Part shown: positions 24,001 to 33,000 of the stretch, piece by piece
Numbering within the stretch: the stretch's first letter is position 1
Layout: each line of letters begins with the position of its first letter
From: Escherichia coli
Lineage (GTDB): Bacteria > Pseudomonadota > Gammaproteobacteria > Enterobacterales > Enterobacteriaceae
Reading direction: 5' to 3' (one strand)
Length of the DNA stretch: 64,000 bases
NCBI RefSeq assembly: GCF_016026235.1
Contig: NZ_CP065613.1
Made by a program: the position numbers

Positions 24001-27000
24001 CGGGCTGGATTTACGCCGTGCGGAGATTGCCCACGAGCGCGAAGGGCTGCCCTTAACGCCGCTGGCGAACTGTGTGGCAGATACGCAGGGCGGCATCGGC
24101 TATCTGATCCAACAGGCGCTGAATAACCGGCTGGCGCGTCACGGCGAGAAGAAAGCCGTCACCGTGGTGACTCAGGTGGAAGTGGATAAAAACGATCCAG
24201 GTTTTGCCCATCCCACCAAGCCCATTGGTGCATTCTTCAGTGAAAGCCAGCGTGACGAATTACAAAAGGCAAACCCTGACTGGCGTTTTGTTGAAGATGC
24301 CGGACGGGGCTATCGCCGCGTGGTCGCCTCGCCGGAACCGAAACGTATTGTCGAAGCACCTGCCATTAAAGCGCTGATCCAACAAGGTTTTGTCGTAATT
24401 GGCGCGGGCGGCGGTGGAATTCCGGTAGTGCGTACTGAAGCGGGGGATTACCAAAGCGTGGACGCGGTTATCGACAAAGATCTCTCTACCGCGCTGCTGG
24501 CCCGTGAAATTCACGCCGACATTCTGGTGATCACCACCGGCGTCGAAAAAGTCTGTATCCACTTTGGTAAACCCGAGCAGCAGGCGCTGGATCGGGTGGA
24601 TATTGCCACCATGACTCGCTATATGCAGGAAGGACATTTCCCGCCCGGCAGCATGTTGCCAAAAATCATCGCCAGCCTGACGTTCCTGGAACAGGGCGGT
24701 AAAGAAGTGATTATCACCACGCCGGAATGCCTGCCCGCGGCGCTGCGTGGCGAAACGGGCACCCATATTATTAAAACGTAAGGACGTAAGATGAAAGAAA
24801 GCAATAGCCGCCGTGAATTTCTGAGCCAGAGCGGTAAGATGGTCACCGCCGCCGCGCTGTTTGGTACGTCTGTGCCGCTCGCCCATGCGGCAGTCTCTGG
24901 CACAACCCACTGCGACGCGAATAACACCATGAAAATCACTGACCCGCATTACTATCTCGACAACGTGCTGCTGGAAACTGGATTTGACTACGAAAATGGC
25001 GTGGCGGTGCAGACCCGCACGGCGCGCCAGACCGTGGAGATTCAGGACGGCAAAATTGTCGCCCTGCGCGAGAACAAGCAGCATCCGGACGCCACGCTGC
25101 CGCACTATGACGCTGGCGGTAAGCTGATGCTGCCCACCACCCGCGACATGCATATTCATCTCGATAAAACCTTTTACGGCGGGCCGTGGCGCTCGCTTAA
25201 TCGCCCGGCAGGCACCACCATCCAGGATATGATTAAGCTCGAGCAGAAAATGCTGCCGGAGCTGCAACCCTACACCCAGGAACGGGCGGAAAAACTGATC
25301 GATCTATTGCAGTCGAAAGGCACCACCATTGCCCGCAGTCACTGCAATATCGAACCGGTTTCCGGCCTGAAAAATCTGCAAAATTTGCAGGCGGTGCTGG
25401 CGCGACGTCAGGCGGGCTTCGAGTGTGAAATTGTCGCCTTCCCGCAGCACGGTTTGCTGCTGTCGAAATCGGAACCCTTAATGCGTGAAGCAATGCAGGC
25501 GGGCGCGCATTACGTCGGCGGTCTGGACCCGACCAGTGTTGATGGCGCGATGGAAAAATCCCTCGACACCATGTTTCAGATTGCGCTGGACTACGACAAA
25601 GGCGTCGATATTCACCTGCATGAAACCACTCCGGCGGGCGTGGCGGCCATCAATTATATGGTTGAAACGGTAGAGAAAACGCCGCAGCTGAAGGGCAAGC
25701 TGACCATCAGCCACGCCTTCGCGCTGGCAACGCTCAACGAGCAGCAGGTAGATGAACTGGCGCATCGCATGGCGGCGCAACAAATTTCTATCGCCTCGAC
25801 GGTGCCGATTGGCACGCTGCATATGCCGCTCAAACAGTTGCACGACAAAGGCGTAAAAGTGATGACCGGCACCGACAGCGTTATCGACCACTGGTCGCCT
25901 TACGGCCTGGGCGACATGCTGGAAAAAGCCAATCTGTACGCGCAGCTCTATATTCGCCCTAACGAACAGAATTTGTCCCGCTCGCTGTTTTTAGCCACTG
26001 GCGATGTATTGCCGCTGAATGAAAAAGGCGAGCGCGTATGGCCAAAAGCGCAGGATGACGCCAGCTTTGTGCTGGTGGACGCCTCCTGTTCCGCCGAGGC
26101 GGTGGCGCGTATCTCGCCGAGAACGGCAACGTTCCATAAAGGGCAACTGGTGTGGGGGAGTGTGGCAGGTTGATGCGCATTTGAAACGCCTGCAACGGTG
26201 AATAGTAAGAGATTTAAGCCCCAGGGAGTGGGGCGGGAATGGTTTGCTAATGAATGATCCTGAACTTTATAATCTCCCGGCATAATTTCAAGGGGATTAT
26301 TTGAGAGAAATACACAAAAGTGAGTTTTAACAAAGGTATTTATCAGGCCATAAATGTGACCTGCTTCGGATAAAAAAGATTCAGTATCGAAAAACCAATG
26401 ATACTCTTGCTGATGGTTACCAACAGTAATTAAGATGTGATTTGTTTTTCCGTAATCGCAAAAATATTGCCATGACCATAAAAGAAAAATTCTCACAAAA
26501 ATATCCCCATGCTTCCTTTTGTACTTTTGGCGATTCAGCAGCGTTGGCCGATCACCTCGCAACGTTGATTGCGACTGGTGTTAAAACAGCTTCCTGTGGT
26601 TCGCTGGCGGGATGTATTGAAGACAACGCATTTCCGATGATTGGTGAGTATAAGATTGTAGAAAATAGCCGTGGTGAGCCTGTATGTGTTATCAGAGTGA
26701 TTGGCCTGCATTTACTGCGCTTTTCTGATGTCACCGCGGAGCTTGCCCGTAAGGAAGGTGAAGGTGACCTCAGTCTTGAATATTGGCGTAATGAACACCG
26801 TCGTTTTTTCCAGGCAGAAGGAAGCTATTCACCAGAAATGGACGTTATCTTTGAAGAATATGCCCTTATTGACGTTGTGTAGATAACTATTTATCTACAC
26901 GAAATAAGCTCACAAACATAAAATATCGCTAATTTTGTTTATTTTGCTGTTTTTTACGTGATGAATGTCACACTTATTATTGCTGCCCGTTTTGTCCATA

Positions 27001-30000: not shown

Positions 30001-33000
30001 CATCACTATCTCGACGCTGAATATTTTCTATGGCCTGCTGTTATGGTTGAGTAAAGGTGTGTGGCTGTACGACTTTCCGCCGTGGTTTGAGCAGGGGGTT
30101 ATGTTGTTCAAGTACACCGATGCTGATGGCTATGACTATGGCCTTGGTCTGCCGCTGATCGCCATGATTACGGTGGTGCTGCTAACAGCGTTTATCATGA
30201 ATTTCACCAGTGTAGGGCGCAAAATTTATGCCCTTGGCGGGAACCGCGAATCAGCCAGTCGCATCGGCTTTAGCGTGCTGAAACTGCAACTTTTCGTCTA
30301 TGGCTATATGGGATTGATGTCTGGCGCTGCGGGTGTAGTGCAGTCGTGGACGGTGATGACTGTCGCCCCCGATTCTCTTCTGGGTTATGAGCTGACAGTA
30401 CTGGCAGCGGTGGTGCTTGGCGGCACTAGTTTGCTCGGCGGGCGCGGCACGTTAACCGGTACTTTGCTCGGCGTGGTGTTGTTGGCAGTGATGCAAAACG
30501 GGCTAAATTTATTGGGAGTCTCGTCTTACTGGCAAACATTGATCACCGGCATCATCATCGTTGCCAGCATTAGTGCCACGGCGTGGAGTCAGCATCAGAA
30601 CCGGAGTCTGCTATGAAAAAATCGTGGCGTAATAACGTTGAGTTTTACTTGATCGGCCTGCTGGTGCTAACTGTTGCCGCGTTCAGCATTACTATGCCGG
30701 AGATTTTCTGGTCGATAAGTAATTTCCAGTCCGTCGCTTCGCAAATGCCCGTGCTGGGCATTCTGGCGTTGGCTATGGCGGTGACCATGCTTTGCGGTGG
30801 CATTAACTTGTCAATTATAGCCACTGCTAACGCCTGTTCACTGGTGATGGCGTGGGTGGCGACTCAGTATCCACTGGGTATTGCTACGGTTGTCGCTACG
30901 TTACTGGCGGGCGCTGGCGCGGCGGTGATAATCGGTTTATGTAACGGCGTATTGATTGCTGGTATTCGAGTGTCGCCAATTCTTGCAACGCTTGGGATGA
31001 TGACGTTGCTCAAAGGGATAAATATTCTGGTGACAGGTGGTAGCGCCATTGCCAATTATCCCTCATGGGTGCTGTGGTTGAATCATGCGCAATGGTTCGG
31101 TATTCCGCTACCGATGTGGTTGTTTGCCGCAGTGGCACTGGGGCTATGGATATTGCTGGAGAAAACGCCGCTCGGTAAAGCCATTTACCTGATTGGGTCT
31201 AACGAACGAGCAACACTTTACTCCGGCATTAACACTCGTCGGGTGCTGATTTGGGTTTATGTCATTTCCGCCTTGCTTTGTGCGGTAGCGGCATTTTTGA
31301 TGATGTCGAAACTCAACTCGGCTAAGGCCTCTTATGGCGAATCGTACTTGCTGGTGTCAATCCTCGCGGCAGTACTCGGCGGGGTTAATCCGGACGGCGG
31401 CAGCGGGCGGATAATTGGTATGGTGCTGGCGCTGTTTCTTCTGCAAATTATTGAAAGCGGCTTCAATATTCTCGGTATAAGCCCCTACCTGACGATGGCC
31501 TTATGGGGAACGTTGCTGCTCTGTTTCATTCAGGTTCGCGGCATGTTGGGGCTGGATCGGGTGGTTTAAATATTGGCTATATTCAATGGACGCGTTTTGC
31601 CGCGATGACATATCAGGCATCGCCAAATACACATAGCTAATCAGGAGTAAACACAATGAAGATCAAAGCTGTTGGTGCATATTCCGCTAAACAACCACTT
31701 GAACCGATGGATATCACACGGCGTGAACCGGGACCGAATGATGTCAAAATCGAAATCGCTTACTGTGGCGTCTGCCATTCCGATCTCCACCAGGTCCGTT
31801 CCGAGTGGGCGGGGACGGTTTACCCCTGCGTACCGGGTCATGAAATTGTGGGGCGTGTGGTAGCCGTTGGTGATCAGGTAGAAAAACATGCGCCGGGCGA
31901 TCTGGTCGGTGTCGGCTGCATTGTCGACAGTTGTAAACATTGCGAAGAGTGTGAAGACGGGCTGGAAAACTACTGTGATCACATGACCGGCACCTATAAC
32001 TCGCCGACGCCGGACGAACCGGGCCATACTCTGGGCGGCTACTCACAACAGATCGTCGTTCATGAGCGATATGTTCTGCGTATTCGTCACCCGCAAGAGC
32101 AGCTGGCGGCGGTGGCTCCTTTGTTGTGTGCAGGGATCACCACGTATTCGCCGCTACGTCACTGGCAGGCCGGGCCGGGTAAAAAAGTGGGCGTGGTCGG
32201 CATCGGCGGTCTGGGACATATGGGGATCAAGCTGGCCCACGCGATGGGGGCGCATGTGGTGGCATTTACCACTTCTGAGGCAAAACGCGAAGCGGCAAAA
32301 GCCCTGGGGGCCGATGAAGTTGTTAACTCACGCAATGCCGATGAGATGGCGGCTCATCTGAAGAGTTTCGATTTCATTTTGAATACAGTAGCTGCGCCAC
32401 ATAATCTCGACGATTTTACCACCTTGCTGAAGCGTGATGGCACCATGACGCTGGTTGGTGCGCCTGCGACACCGCATAAATCGCCGGAAGTTTTCAACCT
32501 GATCATGAAACGCCGTGCGATAGCCGGTTCTATGATTGGCGGCATTCCAGAAACTCAGGAGATGCTCGATTTTTGCGCCGAACATGGCATCGTGGCTGAT
32601 ATAGAGATGATTCGGGCCGATCAAATTAATGAAGCCTATGAGCGAATGCTGCGTGGTGATGTGAAATATCGTTTTGTTATCGATAATCGCACACTAACAG
32701 ACTGAAAAAATTAATAAATACGCTGTGGTTTAACATATTAACTTCGCTCTCCACTTAACTTTTTAGTTAAGGAGAGCGAAATAATATCAAAGTAGCAGTA
32801 AAACCTATAACGTAAATTCAAATTGTTAAATTAACTCCCTCCAGTACACAATACTTCACACGTTAGTTATGAGCGATTTCTGATAGTGCCTGGTTTAATC
32901 AGCGCTTTATTATCTGCGACGTTTATTTTTATTTAAGAGAGATCGCGATGATATCATTAAAAGCTCCGCACAATAATTTGATGCCATATACGCAACAAAG

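What the first reader, a model, noticed from the sequence alone, without database searches (positions are those of the whole stretch)
26442..31569. Strain-specific sugar ABC importer plus ASCH-domain gene inserted between yahJ and yahK
In the K-12 gene order as I recall it, yahJ and yahK are adjacent; here about 5 kb encoding a PBP1 binding protein, a double-NBD ATPase and two permeases lies between them. This architecture matches monosaccharide importers such as YtfQRT-YjfF or Rbs. There is no cognate regulator or catabolic enzyme inside the insert, so the substrate and control are open.
Basis: partly seen in the sequence, partly recalled or inferred. Interest (0 to 1): 0.45.

Follow-up and report, generated by a model that had tools for sequence, protein, structure and literature searches.

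The report
Known Aau sugar importer, lost in K-12
The five genes between yahJ and yahK are a small gene of unknown function plus the already published Aau sugar importer of pathogenic E. coli (takes up D-ribulose and L-arabinose under AraC control), and K-12 lacks them because it deleted them, not because this strain gained them.

Summary
Window 26442-31569 holds an ASCH-domain gene and a four-gene ABC importer (binding protein, fused double ATPase, two permeases) between yahJ and yahK, and K-12 lacks them.

The system is already characterised. The binding protein is 327/328 identical to PDB 9I1M, AauA of EHEC O-island 17 (Z0415-Z0419). Published work shows AraC/L-arabinose induction, a Kd of about 2 uM for D-ribulose against about 600 uM for L-arabinose, phosphorylation by AraB, and a fitness role in the mouse gut. 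So substrate and control are not open.

Two parts of the reading are wrong:
- It is not strain-specific: 2211 of 5426 complete E. coli genomes carry it.
- It is not an insertion. K-12, B2 strains and a cryptic-clade Escherichia keep the 3' ends of the ASCH gene and/or the last permease gene as deletion scars. An Escherichia lineage about 11% diverged carries aau next to yahK at flank-level divergence.

One addition I did not find in either Aau paper: the aauA promoter has a CRP-like site plus araBAD-type tandem AraC half-sites. These are conserved upstream of orthologues from Klebsiella to Pasteurellaceae.

Verdict: already known, low interest.

The parts
24791..26173 (+). yahJ (amidohydrolase), left flank. 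Not part of the system.
   Evidence: Pfam Amidohydro_3; NCBIfam NF005312 at 717 bits; annotated yahJ in L001.
26472..26882 (+). Function unknown. Not linked to the transporter outside Escherichia.
   Evidence: PF04266, E 3.4e-22. PDB 1T62 and 3S9X are the only solved relatives. Homologues are 136-137 aa and are named only 'ASCH domain' or 'YhfF'. No ASCH gene lies next to aau orthologues in 80 loci from other genera.
26877..26900 (+). Perfect 10-bp inverted repeat (GTGTAGATAA-CTAT-TTATCTACAC) overlapping the ASCH stop codon. Possible transcript end or stabiliser.
   Evidence: Read from the sequence. Retained, with substitutions, in all five sequences of alignment A1. Function inferred only.
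26957..26972 (+). CRP-like site CGTGATGAATGTCACA.
   Evidence: One mismatch to TGTGA-N6-TCACA. By itself this is not above chance in the window: 3 matches found, 1.6 expected. It sits at a fixed 37-nt register from the AraC site in seven Enterobacterales loci that carry it, from Escherichia, Klebsiella, Franconibacter, Mangrovibacter and Symbiopectobacterium.
26984..27021 (+). Tandem AraC half-sites: I1 TGCCCGTTTTGTCCATA, spacer TTTA, I2 TAACCATATTTTTAATA.
   Evidence: Same 17+4+17 layout as araI1-araI2, read from MG1655. The junction motif TCCATA-N4-[TC]A[GA]C occurs once in the 64-kb window, here. It lies upstream of the aauA orthologue in 53 of 60 Aau-clade loci, against 0.058 expected per locus.
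27043..27048 (+). Putative -10 hexamer TATTCT.
   Evidence: Starts 22 nt after I2; the araBAD TACTGT starts 21 nt after araI2. Inferred.
27133..28119 (+). aauA, periplasmic D-ribulose/L-arabinose binding protein, 328 aa, with a signal peptide ending LQA|AEK.
   Evidence: 327/328 identical to PDB 9I1M (AauA) and E 4e-188 to Klebsiella 3D02. Contact residues K37, W43, E118, H167, E196 and S223 are all present.
28129..28146 (+). GC-rich hairpin TCGGGGC-GAAA-GCCCCGA between aauA and aauB. Likely an intra-operon attenuator or mRNA stabiliser.
   Evidence: Terminator-like site. Function inferred.
28168..29652 (+). aauB, fused double-NBD ATPase, 494 aa, with one consensus and one degenerate ATP site.
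   Evidence: Two PF00005 stretches. NBD1 has Walker A GQNGCGKS and Walker B LIVMDE but no LSGGQ. NBD2 has LSGGN but degenerate Walker A and B.
29645..30616 (+). aauC, permease, 323 aa. Its start overlaps the aauB stop by 8 nt.
   Evidence: PF02653, E 3.7e-34; coordinates.
30613..31569 (+). aauD, permease, 318 aa. ATGA overlap with aauC.
   Evidence: PF02653, E 3.9e-31. Its last 72 nt survive as a pseudogene scar in K-12-type genomes.
26235..26832 (.). Segment missing in the K-12/B2 haplotype (deletion 1): the ASCH promoter and 5' part. The left edge is approximate.
   Evidence: blastn of K-12 (L002) and B2 (L003) intergenic DNA against the window. Not deleted in Escherichia sp. E2593.
26978..31497 (.). 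Segment missing in the K-12, B2 and E2593 haplotypes (deletion 2): the AraC sites, aauABC and most of aauD.
   Evidence: Alignment A1 shows that the three deletion haplotypes share an 18-nt gap and derived substitutions.
31656..32705 (+). yahK (NADPH-dependent aldehyde reductase), right flank, 86 nt after aauD with no terminator-like site between.

Best explanation
The four transporter genes are aauABCD, the published 'Accessory L-arabinose Uptake' CUT2-type ABC importer of E. coli O-island 17.

How it works, as published:
- AauA binds alpha-D-ribulose in the periplasm with a Kd of about 2 uM, and L-arabinose about 300-fold more weakly.
- The AauC/AauD permease pair and the AauB ATPase import the sugar.
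- Transcription needs AraC plus L-arabinose.
- Imported D-ribulose is phosphorylated by the L-ribulokinase AraB and enters the pentose phosphate pathway. No regulator or kinase is therefore needed inside the locus.

Inferred here from sequence:
- AauB has only one consensus ATP site.
- Control is direct, through an araBAD-like promoter with a CRP site, tandem AraC I1-I2 half-sites overlapping the -35 position, and a -10 hexamer 22 nt after I2.
- This promoter design is old. It is conserved upstream of orthologues across Enterobacterales and Pasteurellaceae.
- The locus was present next to yahK before E. coli diversified.
- The K-12-type 'empty' site is a derived haplotype. The aau deletion is shared with a cryptic-clade Escherichia, and a second deletion then removed most of the neighbouring ASCH gene.

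The ASCH gene is an independent YhfF-like gene of unknown function.
For: Identity with Aau:
- AauA is 327/328 identical to 9I1M, and all six ligand-contact residues are present.
- O157:H7 genomes carry the same 8.5 kb at 98.7% identity in the same context.

Published function:
- PMC11127945 reports Z0415-9 on OI-17, loss of induction in a delta-araC strain, and a mouse competition defect.
- PMC12307932 reports the Kd values, the crystal structure and the AraB kinase step.

Promoter:
- The CRP-like site and the I1/I2 sites are at 26957-27021.
- araBAD was read directly for comparison.
- The junction motif occurs once in the 64-kb window and in 31 loci under the strict pattern. All 31 are in the Aau clade.
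- With one mismatch allowed it is in 53 of 60 Aau-clade loci and 0 of 20 loci of the ~60% clade, with 0.058 expected per locus.
- A register alignment of 18 promoters shows the layout.
- An AraC equivalog (372 bits, cut-off 208) lies directly upstream of the transporter in Actinobacillus.

Deletion polarity:
- K-12 and B2 genomes carry the scars.
- 2804 genomes share one junction and 2211 carry the island.
- L031 carries aau-yahK-yahL at 89.8% nt identity, against 88.8% and 87.3% for its flanks.
- E2593 has an intact ASCH gene together with the same aau deletion.
- There is no tRNA at either boundary of the segment, no flanking direct repeat and no mobility gene.
Against: - AraC and CRP binding to the proposed sites has not been shown. 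I2 matches araI2 at only 5 of 17 positions, and the CRP match alone is not above chance in the window.
- Outside Escherichia the orthologues sit in unrelated contexts, and they are patchy within Enterobacteriaceae. Acquisition by an early Escherichia ancestor therefore cannot be excluded.
- Of the Escherichia species representatives scanned, only L031 and an E. coli-like contig carry aauA. 'Ancestral' rests on that one diverged lineage plus the scars.
- This strain's transporter has not itself been tested, and AauA differs from 9I1M at residue 200 (D instead of V).
Confidence: 0.9

Rival explanations
1. A genomic island recently acquired by horizontal transfer was inserted between adjacent yahJ and yahK in this lineage. 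This is the first reader's view, and both Aau papers use the label 'horizontally acquired'.
For: - Absent from K-12 and from about half of the complete genomes.
- Listed as an O-island of EDL933.
- Orthologues in other genera lie in unrelated contexts and are patchily distributed.
- GC is 0.42-0.45 over the ASCH gene and promoter, against about 0.51-0.58 nearby.
Against: - The 'empty' site contains colinear fragments of the ASCH and aauD coding sequences, which an unoccupied target site would not have.
- There is no integrase, IS element, tRNA at either boundary or flanking direct repeat.
- A ~11%-diverged Escherichia lineage carries aau next to yahK with the same divergence as its flanks.
- GC of the transporter genes (0.47-0.53) is ordinary for E. 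coli.
Confidence: 0.07
2. The transporter is mainly an L-arabinose scavenger (the original 2024 reading), and D-ribulose binding is incidental.
For: Induced only by L-arabinose through AraC. An AraC operator is conserved across orders. In Actinobacillus araC lies directly upstream.
Against: - Published Kd is 598 uM for L-arabinose against 1.98 uM for D-ribulose, and the crystal structure has D-ribulose bound.
- The six D-ribulose contact residues are invariant in all 79 relatives examined. These include the ~60% clade, whose examined representative L064 is followed by a dedicated FGGY pentulose kinase.
Confidence: 0.1
3. It is an autoinducer-2 (Lsr-like) importer, as the RefSeq product name of the binding protein suggests.
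For: PGAP names the binding protein 'autoinducer 2 ABC transporter substrate-binding protein'. LsrB structures are distant PDB hits, E about 1e-21 to 1e-24.
Against: The LsrB equivalog model scores 111 bits against a cut-off of 384, and LsrA, LsrC and LsrD are also far below their cut-offs. There are no lsrK, lsrR, lsrF or lsrG neighbours. Experimental ligand data point to D-ribulose.
Confidence: 0.02

Closest known systems
AauABCD (Z0415-Z0419), Accessory L-arabinose Uptake system of EHEC O-island 17 (Cottam et al., Nat Commun 2024 and 2025; PDB 9I1M)
   Same: It is the same locus. The binding protein is 327/328 identical, the gene order and the position between yahJ/ASCH and yahK are the same, and the 8.5 kb is 98.7% identical to O157:H7 genomes.
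   Different: One residue differs (D200 here, V200 in 9I1M). The ATPase is a single intact ORF here, whereas the paper lists it as Z0416-7. The papers call the locus horizontally acquired and EHEC-associated. Here it looks ancestral, with secondary loss, and is present in 41% of complete genomes.
Rbl D-ribulose utilisation locus of Citrobacter rodentium (PMC12307932)
   Same: Same transporter family. The related clade (58-63% binding-protein identity; for example Citrobacter amalonaticus L064) has the same gene order and the same six ligand-contact residues.
   Different: In L064 the transporter is followed by a dedicated FGGY pentulose kinase and a SIS-domain gene, and none of the 20 loci of that clade has an AraC operator motif. 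The window locus has no kinase and relies on AraB. That L064 is a true Rbl orthologue is inferred, not tested against the ROD_24811-61 sequences.
araBAD promoter (CRP site, araI1-araI2, class II AraC activation)
   Same: 17-nt half-sites in direct repeat with a 4-nt spacer, I1 ending in TCCATA, I2 starting TA[GA]C, the -10 hexamer starting 21-22 nt after I2, and a CRP-like site upstream.
   Different: The CRP-to-I1 register is 2 nt shorter (37 against 39 nt). I2 is poorly matched to araI2. No O2-type distal half-site was looked for. No binding data exist.
YtfQRT-YjfF, RbsABC, AraFGH, LsrACDB and RhaSTPQ
   Same: Same superfamily and domain set. YtfQRT-YjfF and RhaSTPQ (by my recollection, not checked here) also share the gene order of binding protein, ATPase and two permeases.
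   Different: Every NCBIfam equivalog model for these systems scores far below its cut-off. The binding protein's nearest characterised relatives apart from AauA are at E 1e-20 to 1e-24.

Membership tests
Aau (AauABCD) importer of E. coli OI-17 | Binding protein orthologous to AauA (PDB 9I1M) | tested here: met
   327/328 identical over the full length, E 3.8e-214.
Aau (AauABCD) importer of E. coli OI-17 | D-ribulose contact residues K37, W43, E118, H167, E196, S223 (PMC12307932) | tested here: met
   All six are present and invariant in 79 relatives.
Aau (AauABCD) importer of E. coli OI-17 | About 4.4-kb operon in the order binding protein, ATPase, two permeases, located as in EHEC | tested here: met
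   O157:H7 genomes match 100% of 24500-33000 at 98.7% identity with the same annotated neighbours.
Aau (AauABCD) importer of E. coli OI-17 | AraC-dependent induction by L-arabinose | not testable with these tools
   Sequence proxy only: an araI1-I2-like tandem site and a CRP-like site at 26957-27021.
Aau (AauABCD) importer of E. coli OI-17 | High-affinity D-ribulose binding and transport, with AraB-dependent use | not testable with these tools
   Published for the EHEC protein. Not measured for this allele.
CUT2 (TC 3.A.1.2) monosaccharide ABC importers | Peripla_BP_4 binding protein, a single polypeptide with two NBDs, and BPD_transp_2 permeases | tested here: met
   PF13407, two PF00005 stretches, and PF02653 twice.
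LsrB / Lsr AI-2 importer (the RefSeq product name) | Score above the NCBIfam equivalog cut-offs for LsrB, LsrA, LsrC and LsrD | tested here: not met
   LsrB 111.4 against 384; LsrA 380.7 against 586; LsrC 117.5 against 388; LsrD 143.7 against 500.
   YtfR 410.6 against 850; RbsB 45.8 against 337; AraG 422 against 689; AraH 158 against 378; RhaS 136.7 against 342.
Horizontally acquired genomic island | Mobility genes, a tRNA or att-type direct repeats at the borders | tested here: not met
   No integrase or IS element in the segment, no tRNA at either boundary of the segment, and no flanking direct repeats.
Horizontally acquired genomic island | Genomes without the island have a clean, unoccupied site | tested here: not met
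   K-12, B2 and E2593 sites contain fragments of the ASCH and/or aauD coding sequence.
Rbl-type D-ribulose locus | A dedicated FGGY D-ribulokinase adjacent to the transporter | tested here: not met
   There is no kinase between yahJ and yahK. Such a kinase is present downstream in L064.

The most novel reading that the evidence does not exclude
Aau is not an EHEC-acquired island but an old AraC-regulon operon that already sat next to yahK before E. coli diversified.

An ancient deletion haplotype, shared by phylogroups A and B2 and by a cryptic-clade Escherichia, has persisted alongside the intact haplotype as a long-lived presence/absence polymorphism.

The 'hijacking' of AraC and AraB described for EHEC would then be the ancestral design of this transporter family, with a CRP plus AraC I1-I2 promoter conserved from Enterobacteriaceae to Pasteurellaceae.
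Probability: 0.6. Interest if true: 0.35.

Novelty: already known. Interest (0 to 1): 0.18.

Why it matters
The finding itself re-discovers a transporter whose substrate, regulation, structure and in-vivo role were published in 2024-2025, so it opens no new question.

Three by-products have modest value:
- They correct the direction of the event. K-12 and B2 lost the locus; this strain did not gain it. That changes how the association of Aau with LEE-positive strains should be read: as retention rather than acquisition.
- They give a concrete, testable operator for the reported AraC dependence. They also suggest the same control exists in Klebsiella, Yersinia and Pasteurellaceae.
- They flag the RefSeq product name 'autoinducer 2 ABC transporter substrate-binding protein' as misleading for this protein.

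Tried and rejected
- Rfam scan of 25500-33500 at E up to 0.1: no RNA family.
- tRNA scan and repeat search for island borders: nothing at the segment's edges.
- L087, first taken for a diverged outgroup because its ASCH protein is only 76% identical: it is an ordinary E. coli (95.5% nt identity) with many indel errors, so I discarded it.
- L004, labelled 'Bacteroidales MAG': a 4.7-kb contig 99% identical to E. coli aau, treated as contamination and not used.
- ASCH as a functional partner of the transporter: rejected, because none of 80 aau-type loci outside Escherichia has an ASCH, yahJ or yahK neighbour. E2593 also keeps the ASCH gene without aau, and L031 keeps aau without an intact ASCH gene.
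- Literature searches for a reported AraC or CRP site in the aau promoter, or for an earlier comparative AraC-regulon assignment: nothing found in the searchable library. This does not prove it is unpublished.
- The generic sigma-70 and terminator scans of the region were at or below shuffle expectation, so they carry no weight on their own.
As a result, the yahJ-yahK junctions of E. albertii, E. fergusonii, E. marmotae and E. ruysiae could not be fetched.

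
Full report
**Observation**

The reported interval holds five same-strand ORFs.
- An ASCH-domain gene at 26442/26472-26882 (PF04266).
- A type I periplasmic binding protein at 27133-28119 (PF13407, E 4.5e-63).
- A roughly 495-aa ATPase with two ABC domains at 28153/28168-29652.
- Two BPD_transp_2 permeases at 29645-30616 and 30583/30613-31569.

The flanks are yahJ (24791-26173) and yahK (31656-32705). The 8.5 kb around the locus matches E. coli FDAARGOS_943 (NZ_CP065615.1) at 100.0%, where the genes are annotated in the same way. Outside that stretch the window and this record are 99.9% identical, so the window comes from a close relative and not necessarily from that strain. 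In K-12-type genomes yahJ and yahK are 376 bp apart.

**What it is**

The binding protein is 327/328 identical over its full length to PDB 9I1M. It is also close to the Klebsiella structural-genomics entry 3D02. 9I1M is AauA, the solute-binding protein of the 'Accessory L-arabinose Uptake' (Aau) transporter of enterohaemorrhagic E. coli.

Cottam et al. 2024 (PMC11127945) describe the locus as Z0415 (binding protein), Z0416-7 (ATPase) and Z0418/Z0419 (permeases) on O-island 17.
- Its promoter responds only to L-arabinose.
- Induction is lost in a delta-araC strain and restored by araC in trans.
- A delta-aau mutant is outcompeted about 100-fold in streptomycin-treated mice (the fold figure is from the 2025 paper's account).

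Cottam et al. 2025 (PMC12307932) add the following.
- AauA binds D-ribulose with Kd 1.98 uM, against 598 uM for L-arabinose.
- The crystal structure has alpha-D-ribulose held by Trp43, His167, Glu118, Lys37, Glu196 and Ser223.
- D-ribulose does not induce the operon. It is taken up when L-arabinose is present and is phosphorylated by AraB.

All six contact residues are present in the window protein. The single difference from 9I1M is D200 instead of V200, and D200 is also the Klebsiella residue. O157:H7 genomes carry the whole 24500-33000 stretch at 98.7% identity with the same neighbours.

**Anatomy added here**

- aauC overlaps the aauB stop by 8 nt, and aauD overlaps aauC by 4 nt, which suggests coupled translation.
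- A GC-rich hairpin lies just after aauA at 28129-28146.
- AauB has Walker A (GQNGCGKS) and Walker B (LIVMDE) motifs in its first half but no LSGGQ. Its second half has LSGGN but degenerate Walker motifs. I infer that the two halves form one consensus and one degenerate ATP site.
- None of the NCBIfam equivalog models for LsrB, RhaS, RbsB, AlsB, YtfR/T, YjfF or AraG/H reaches its cut-off. The RefSeq name 'autoinducer 2 ABC transporter substrate-binding protein' is therefore not supported.

**Promoter**

The searches of the two Aau papers found no mention of a regulator binding site or of CRP in one paper, and none of an operator site, CRP or catabolite control in the other.

The 250-nt ASCH-aauA spacer contains, in order:
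- CGTGATGAATGTCACA at 26957-26972, one mismatch from the CRP consensus;
- TGCCCGTTTTGTCCATA, then TTTA, then TAACCATATTTTTAATA at 26984-27021;
- TATTCT starting 22 nt further on.

The araBAD promoter, read directly from MG1655, has TAGCATTTTTATCCATA, AGAT, TAGCGGATCCTACCTGA, and then TACTGT starting 21 nt after I2. The layout is the same.

The CRP match alone is not above chance in the window (3 found, 1.6 expected). I2 is also a poor match to araI2. The weight of the argument comes from conservation.
- The junction motif TCCATA-N4-[TC]A[GA]C occurs once in the 64-kb window, at this spot.
- Under the strict pattern it lies upstream of the aauA orthologue in 31 of the 60 Aau-clade loci retrieved from other genomes, with 12 background hits in 2.5 Mb.
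- With one mismatch allowed it is found in 53 of 60 Aau-clade loci, against 0.058 expected per locus, and in 0 of 20 loci of the more distant clade.
- A register alignment shows I1 and I2 conserved from Escherichia, Klebsiella, Franconibacter, Mangrovibacter, Sodalis, Yersinia and Providencia through to Actinobacillus, Mannheimia and Rodentibacter. In several Enterobacterales a GTGA-N6-TCAC element sits a constant 37 nt upstream.
- In Actinobacillus an AraC equivalog (372 bits, cut-off 208) lies directly upstream of the transporter.

I infer direct class II activation by AraC with CRP help, and that this control is ancestral to the transporter family rather than an EHEC novelty. Binding itself is untested.

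**Relatives**

The genome-collection scan found two groups.
- Orthologues at 65-92% binding-protein identity in Klebsiella pneumoniae, Franconibacter, Mangrovibacter, Symbiopectobacterium, Yersinia, Providencia, many Pasteurellaceae and some Vibrio.
- A second clade at 58-63% in Citrobacter amalonaticus, Pluralibacter, Cedecea, Serratia and Pantoea.

In the one locus of the second clade that I examined (L064), the transporter is followed by an FGGY pentulose kinase (TIGR01315, 695 bits) and a SIS-domain gene. This matches the published description of the C. rodentium Rbl locus. That assignment is an inference, because I did not compare against the ROD sequences.

The six D-ribulose contact residues are invariant in all 60 and all 19 binding proteins that could be aligned from the two clades. 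The two clades probably share a ligand and differ in their regulator and kinase arrangements.

**Inserted here, or deleted elsewhere?**

K-12-type (L002) and B2 (L003) intergenic DNA aligns to the window in three colinear pieces:
- the end of yahJ plus 60 nt (window 26100-26234);
- the last ~50 nt of the ASCH gene plus its downstream hairpin (26833-26904);
- the last 72 nt of aauD plus the yahK leader (31498-31705).

PGAP annotates the third piece as a pseudogene 'missing N-terminus'. An unoccupied insertion site would not contain the 3' ends of two island genes in the correct order. The K-12 state is therefore derived by two deletions, roughly 26235-26832 and 26978-31497.

Counts across the 5426 complete E. 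coli genomes:
- 2211 carry at least 80% of the segment;
- 2804 carry the K-12-type double junction, detected with a 200-nt probe at 95-100% identity.

No intermediate appeared in the sampled rows, so the species looks essentially dimorphic at this site. The published phylogroup pattern fits: the locus is common in B1, E and D and largely absent from A and B2.

Two non-coli Escherichia genomes give the polarity and the order of events.
- L031 is labelled E. coli but is only about 89% identical in nucleotides. It has pdeL joined to the last 100 nt of the ASCH gene, followed by aauABCD-yahK-yahL. Identity over the aau stretch is 89.8%, against 88.8% and 87.3% in the flanks. That is the pattern expected for vertical descent, not for recent transfer.
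- Escherichia sp. E2593 (L084) has yahJ, an intact ASCH gene (90% aa identity) and yahK, with the aau deletion at the same place as in K-12.

In alignment A1 the K-12, B2 and E2593 sequences share an 18-nt gap and the same derived changes in what was the CRP half-site. This points to one old delta-aau haplotype, on which the ASCH deletion happened later.

The segment has no integrase or IS element, no tRNA at either boundary and no flanking direct repeats. GC of the transporter genes is ordinary.

What remains possible is an acquisition by an early Escherichia ancestor. Outside the genus there is no synteny, and the distribution is patchy.

**The ASCH gene**

It is a 136-aa YhfF/COG4405-type ASCH protein. 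Its homologues across Enterobacterales carry no functional name, and its only solved relatives are uncharacterised structural-genomics entries. It is not adjacent to aau orthologues in any other genus, and each of the two genes occurs without the other in Escherichia. I treat it as an unrelated neighbour of unknown function. From general knowledge, some ASCH proteins such as E. coli YqfB are N4-acylcytosine amidohydrolases. That is a lead, not a result.

**Verdict**

It is wrong on 'strain-specific', on the direction of the event, and on the state of knowledge. The system is already known (Aau). The refinements found here are the deletion scars, the old shared deletion haplotype, and the conserved CRP/AraC operator. 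They are testable and of modest interest.

Noticed in passing
window 26957-27048: The aauA promoter has an araBAD-like layout: a CRP-like site, tandem AraC half-sites I1/I2 and a -10 hexamer. It is conserved upstream of orthologues from Klebsiella to Pasteurellaceae. Term searches of the two Aau papers found no mention of such a site.
   Followed up: yes
L002:4716-4915, L003, L084:9389-9510 (aligned to window 26860-26990 and 31488-31520): K-12 (phylogroup A), B2 and the cryptic-clade strain Escherichia sp. E2593 share one aau-deletion haplotype, with a common 18-nt gap and common derived substitutions. E2593 still has the ASCH gene intact. This looks like an old presence/absence polymorphism that crosses lineage boundaries.
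   Followed up: partly
L031:1-8000 (NZ_JAATUR010000022.1): A genome labelled E. coli (strain SCPM-O-B-8794) is only about 87-90% identical to the window in nucleotides across the aligned stretches. It lacks the stretch from after pdeL to within the ASCH gene (window ~17317-26782, which includes yahD through yahJ), with pdeL joined directly to the 3' end of the ASCH gene. It is probably a different Escherichia species.
   Followed up: partly
window 27133-28119: RefSeq/PGAP names this protein 'autoinducer 2 ABC transporter substrate-binding protein'. It scores 111 bits against the LsrB equivalog cut-off of 384, and it is experimentally a D-ribulose binder. The product name is misleading.
   Followed up: yes
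window 23514-23786 and 43069-43690: Tandem arrays of a 93-94-nt palindromic unit, 2.9 and 6.6 copies, REP/BIME-like. The yahG-yahI array differs in copy number from the otherwise 99.9% identical FDAARGOS_943 record. Related single copies lie near 46400-46505.
   Followed up: no
window 34106-34186: ARAGORN calls a tRNA-Ser(GGA) overlapping the yahM start region. Rfam finds no tRNA there at E up to 1, so it is probably a false positive.
   Followed up: partly
L001:3398-4816 against window 22083-23501: yahG is annotated as a pseudogene with an internal stop in FDAARGOS_943, but it is an uninterrupted 472-aa ORF in the window. That record also has an IS5 transposase just upstream of yahD, where the window instead aligns continuously with the yahB-yahC-yahD region of Escherichia sp. 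E2593 (L084).
   Followed up: no
L042:6868-16014 (Actinobacillus indolicus): Here the Aau-type transporter sits between a bona fide araC and an FGGY kinase (only a weak XylB-like match, 534 aa). Next to them are 3-dehydro-L-gulonate 2-dehydrogenase, 3-keto-L-gulonate-6-P decarboxylase and an ascorbate PTS. This is a different metabolic context, which may hint at other pentulose substrates.
   Followed up: no
window 31570-31655: Only 86 nt separate aauD from yahK and there is no terminator-like site. In aau-positive strains yahK might therefore receive L-arabinose-induced read-through transcription. Untested.
   Followed up: no
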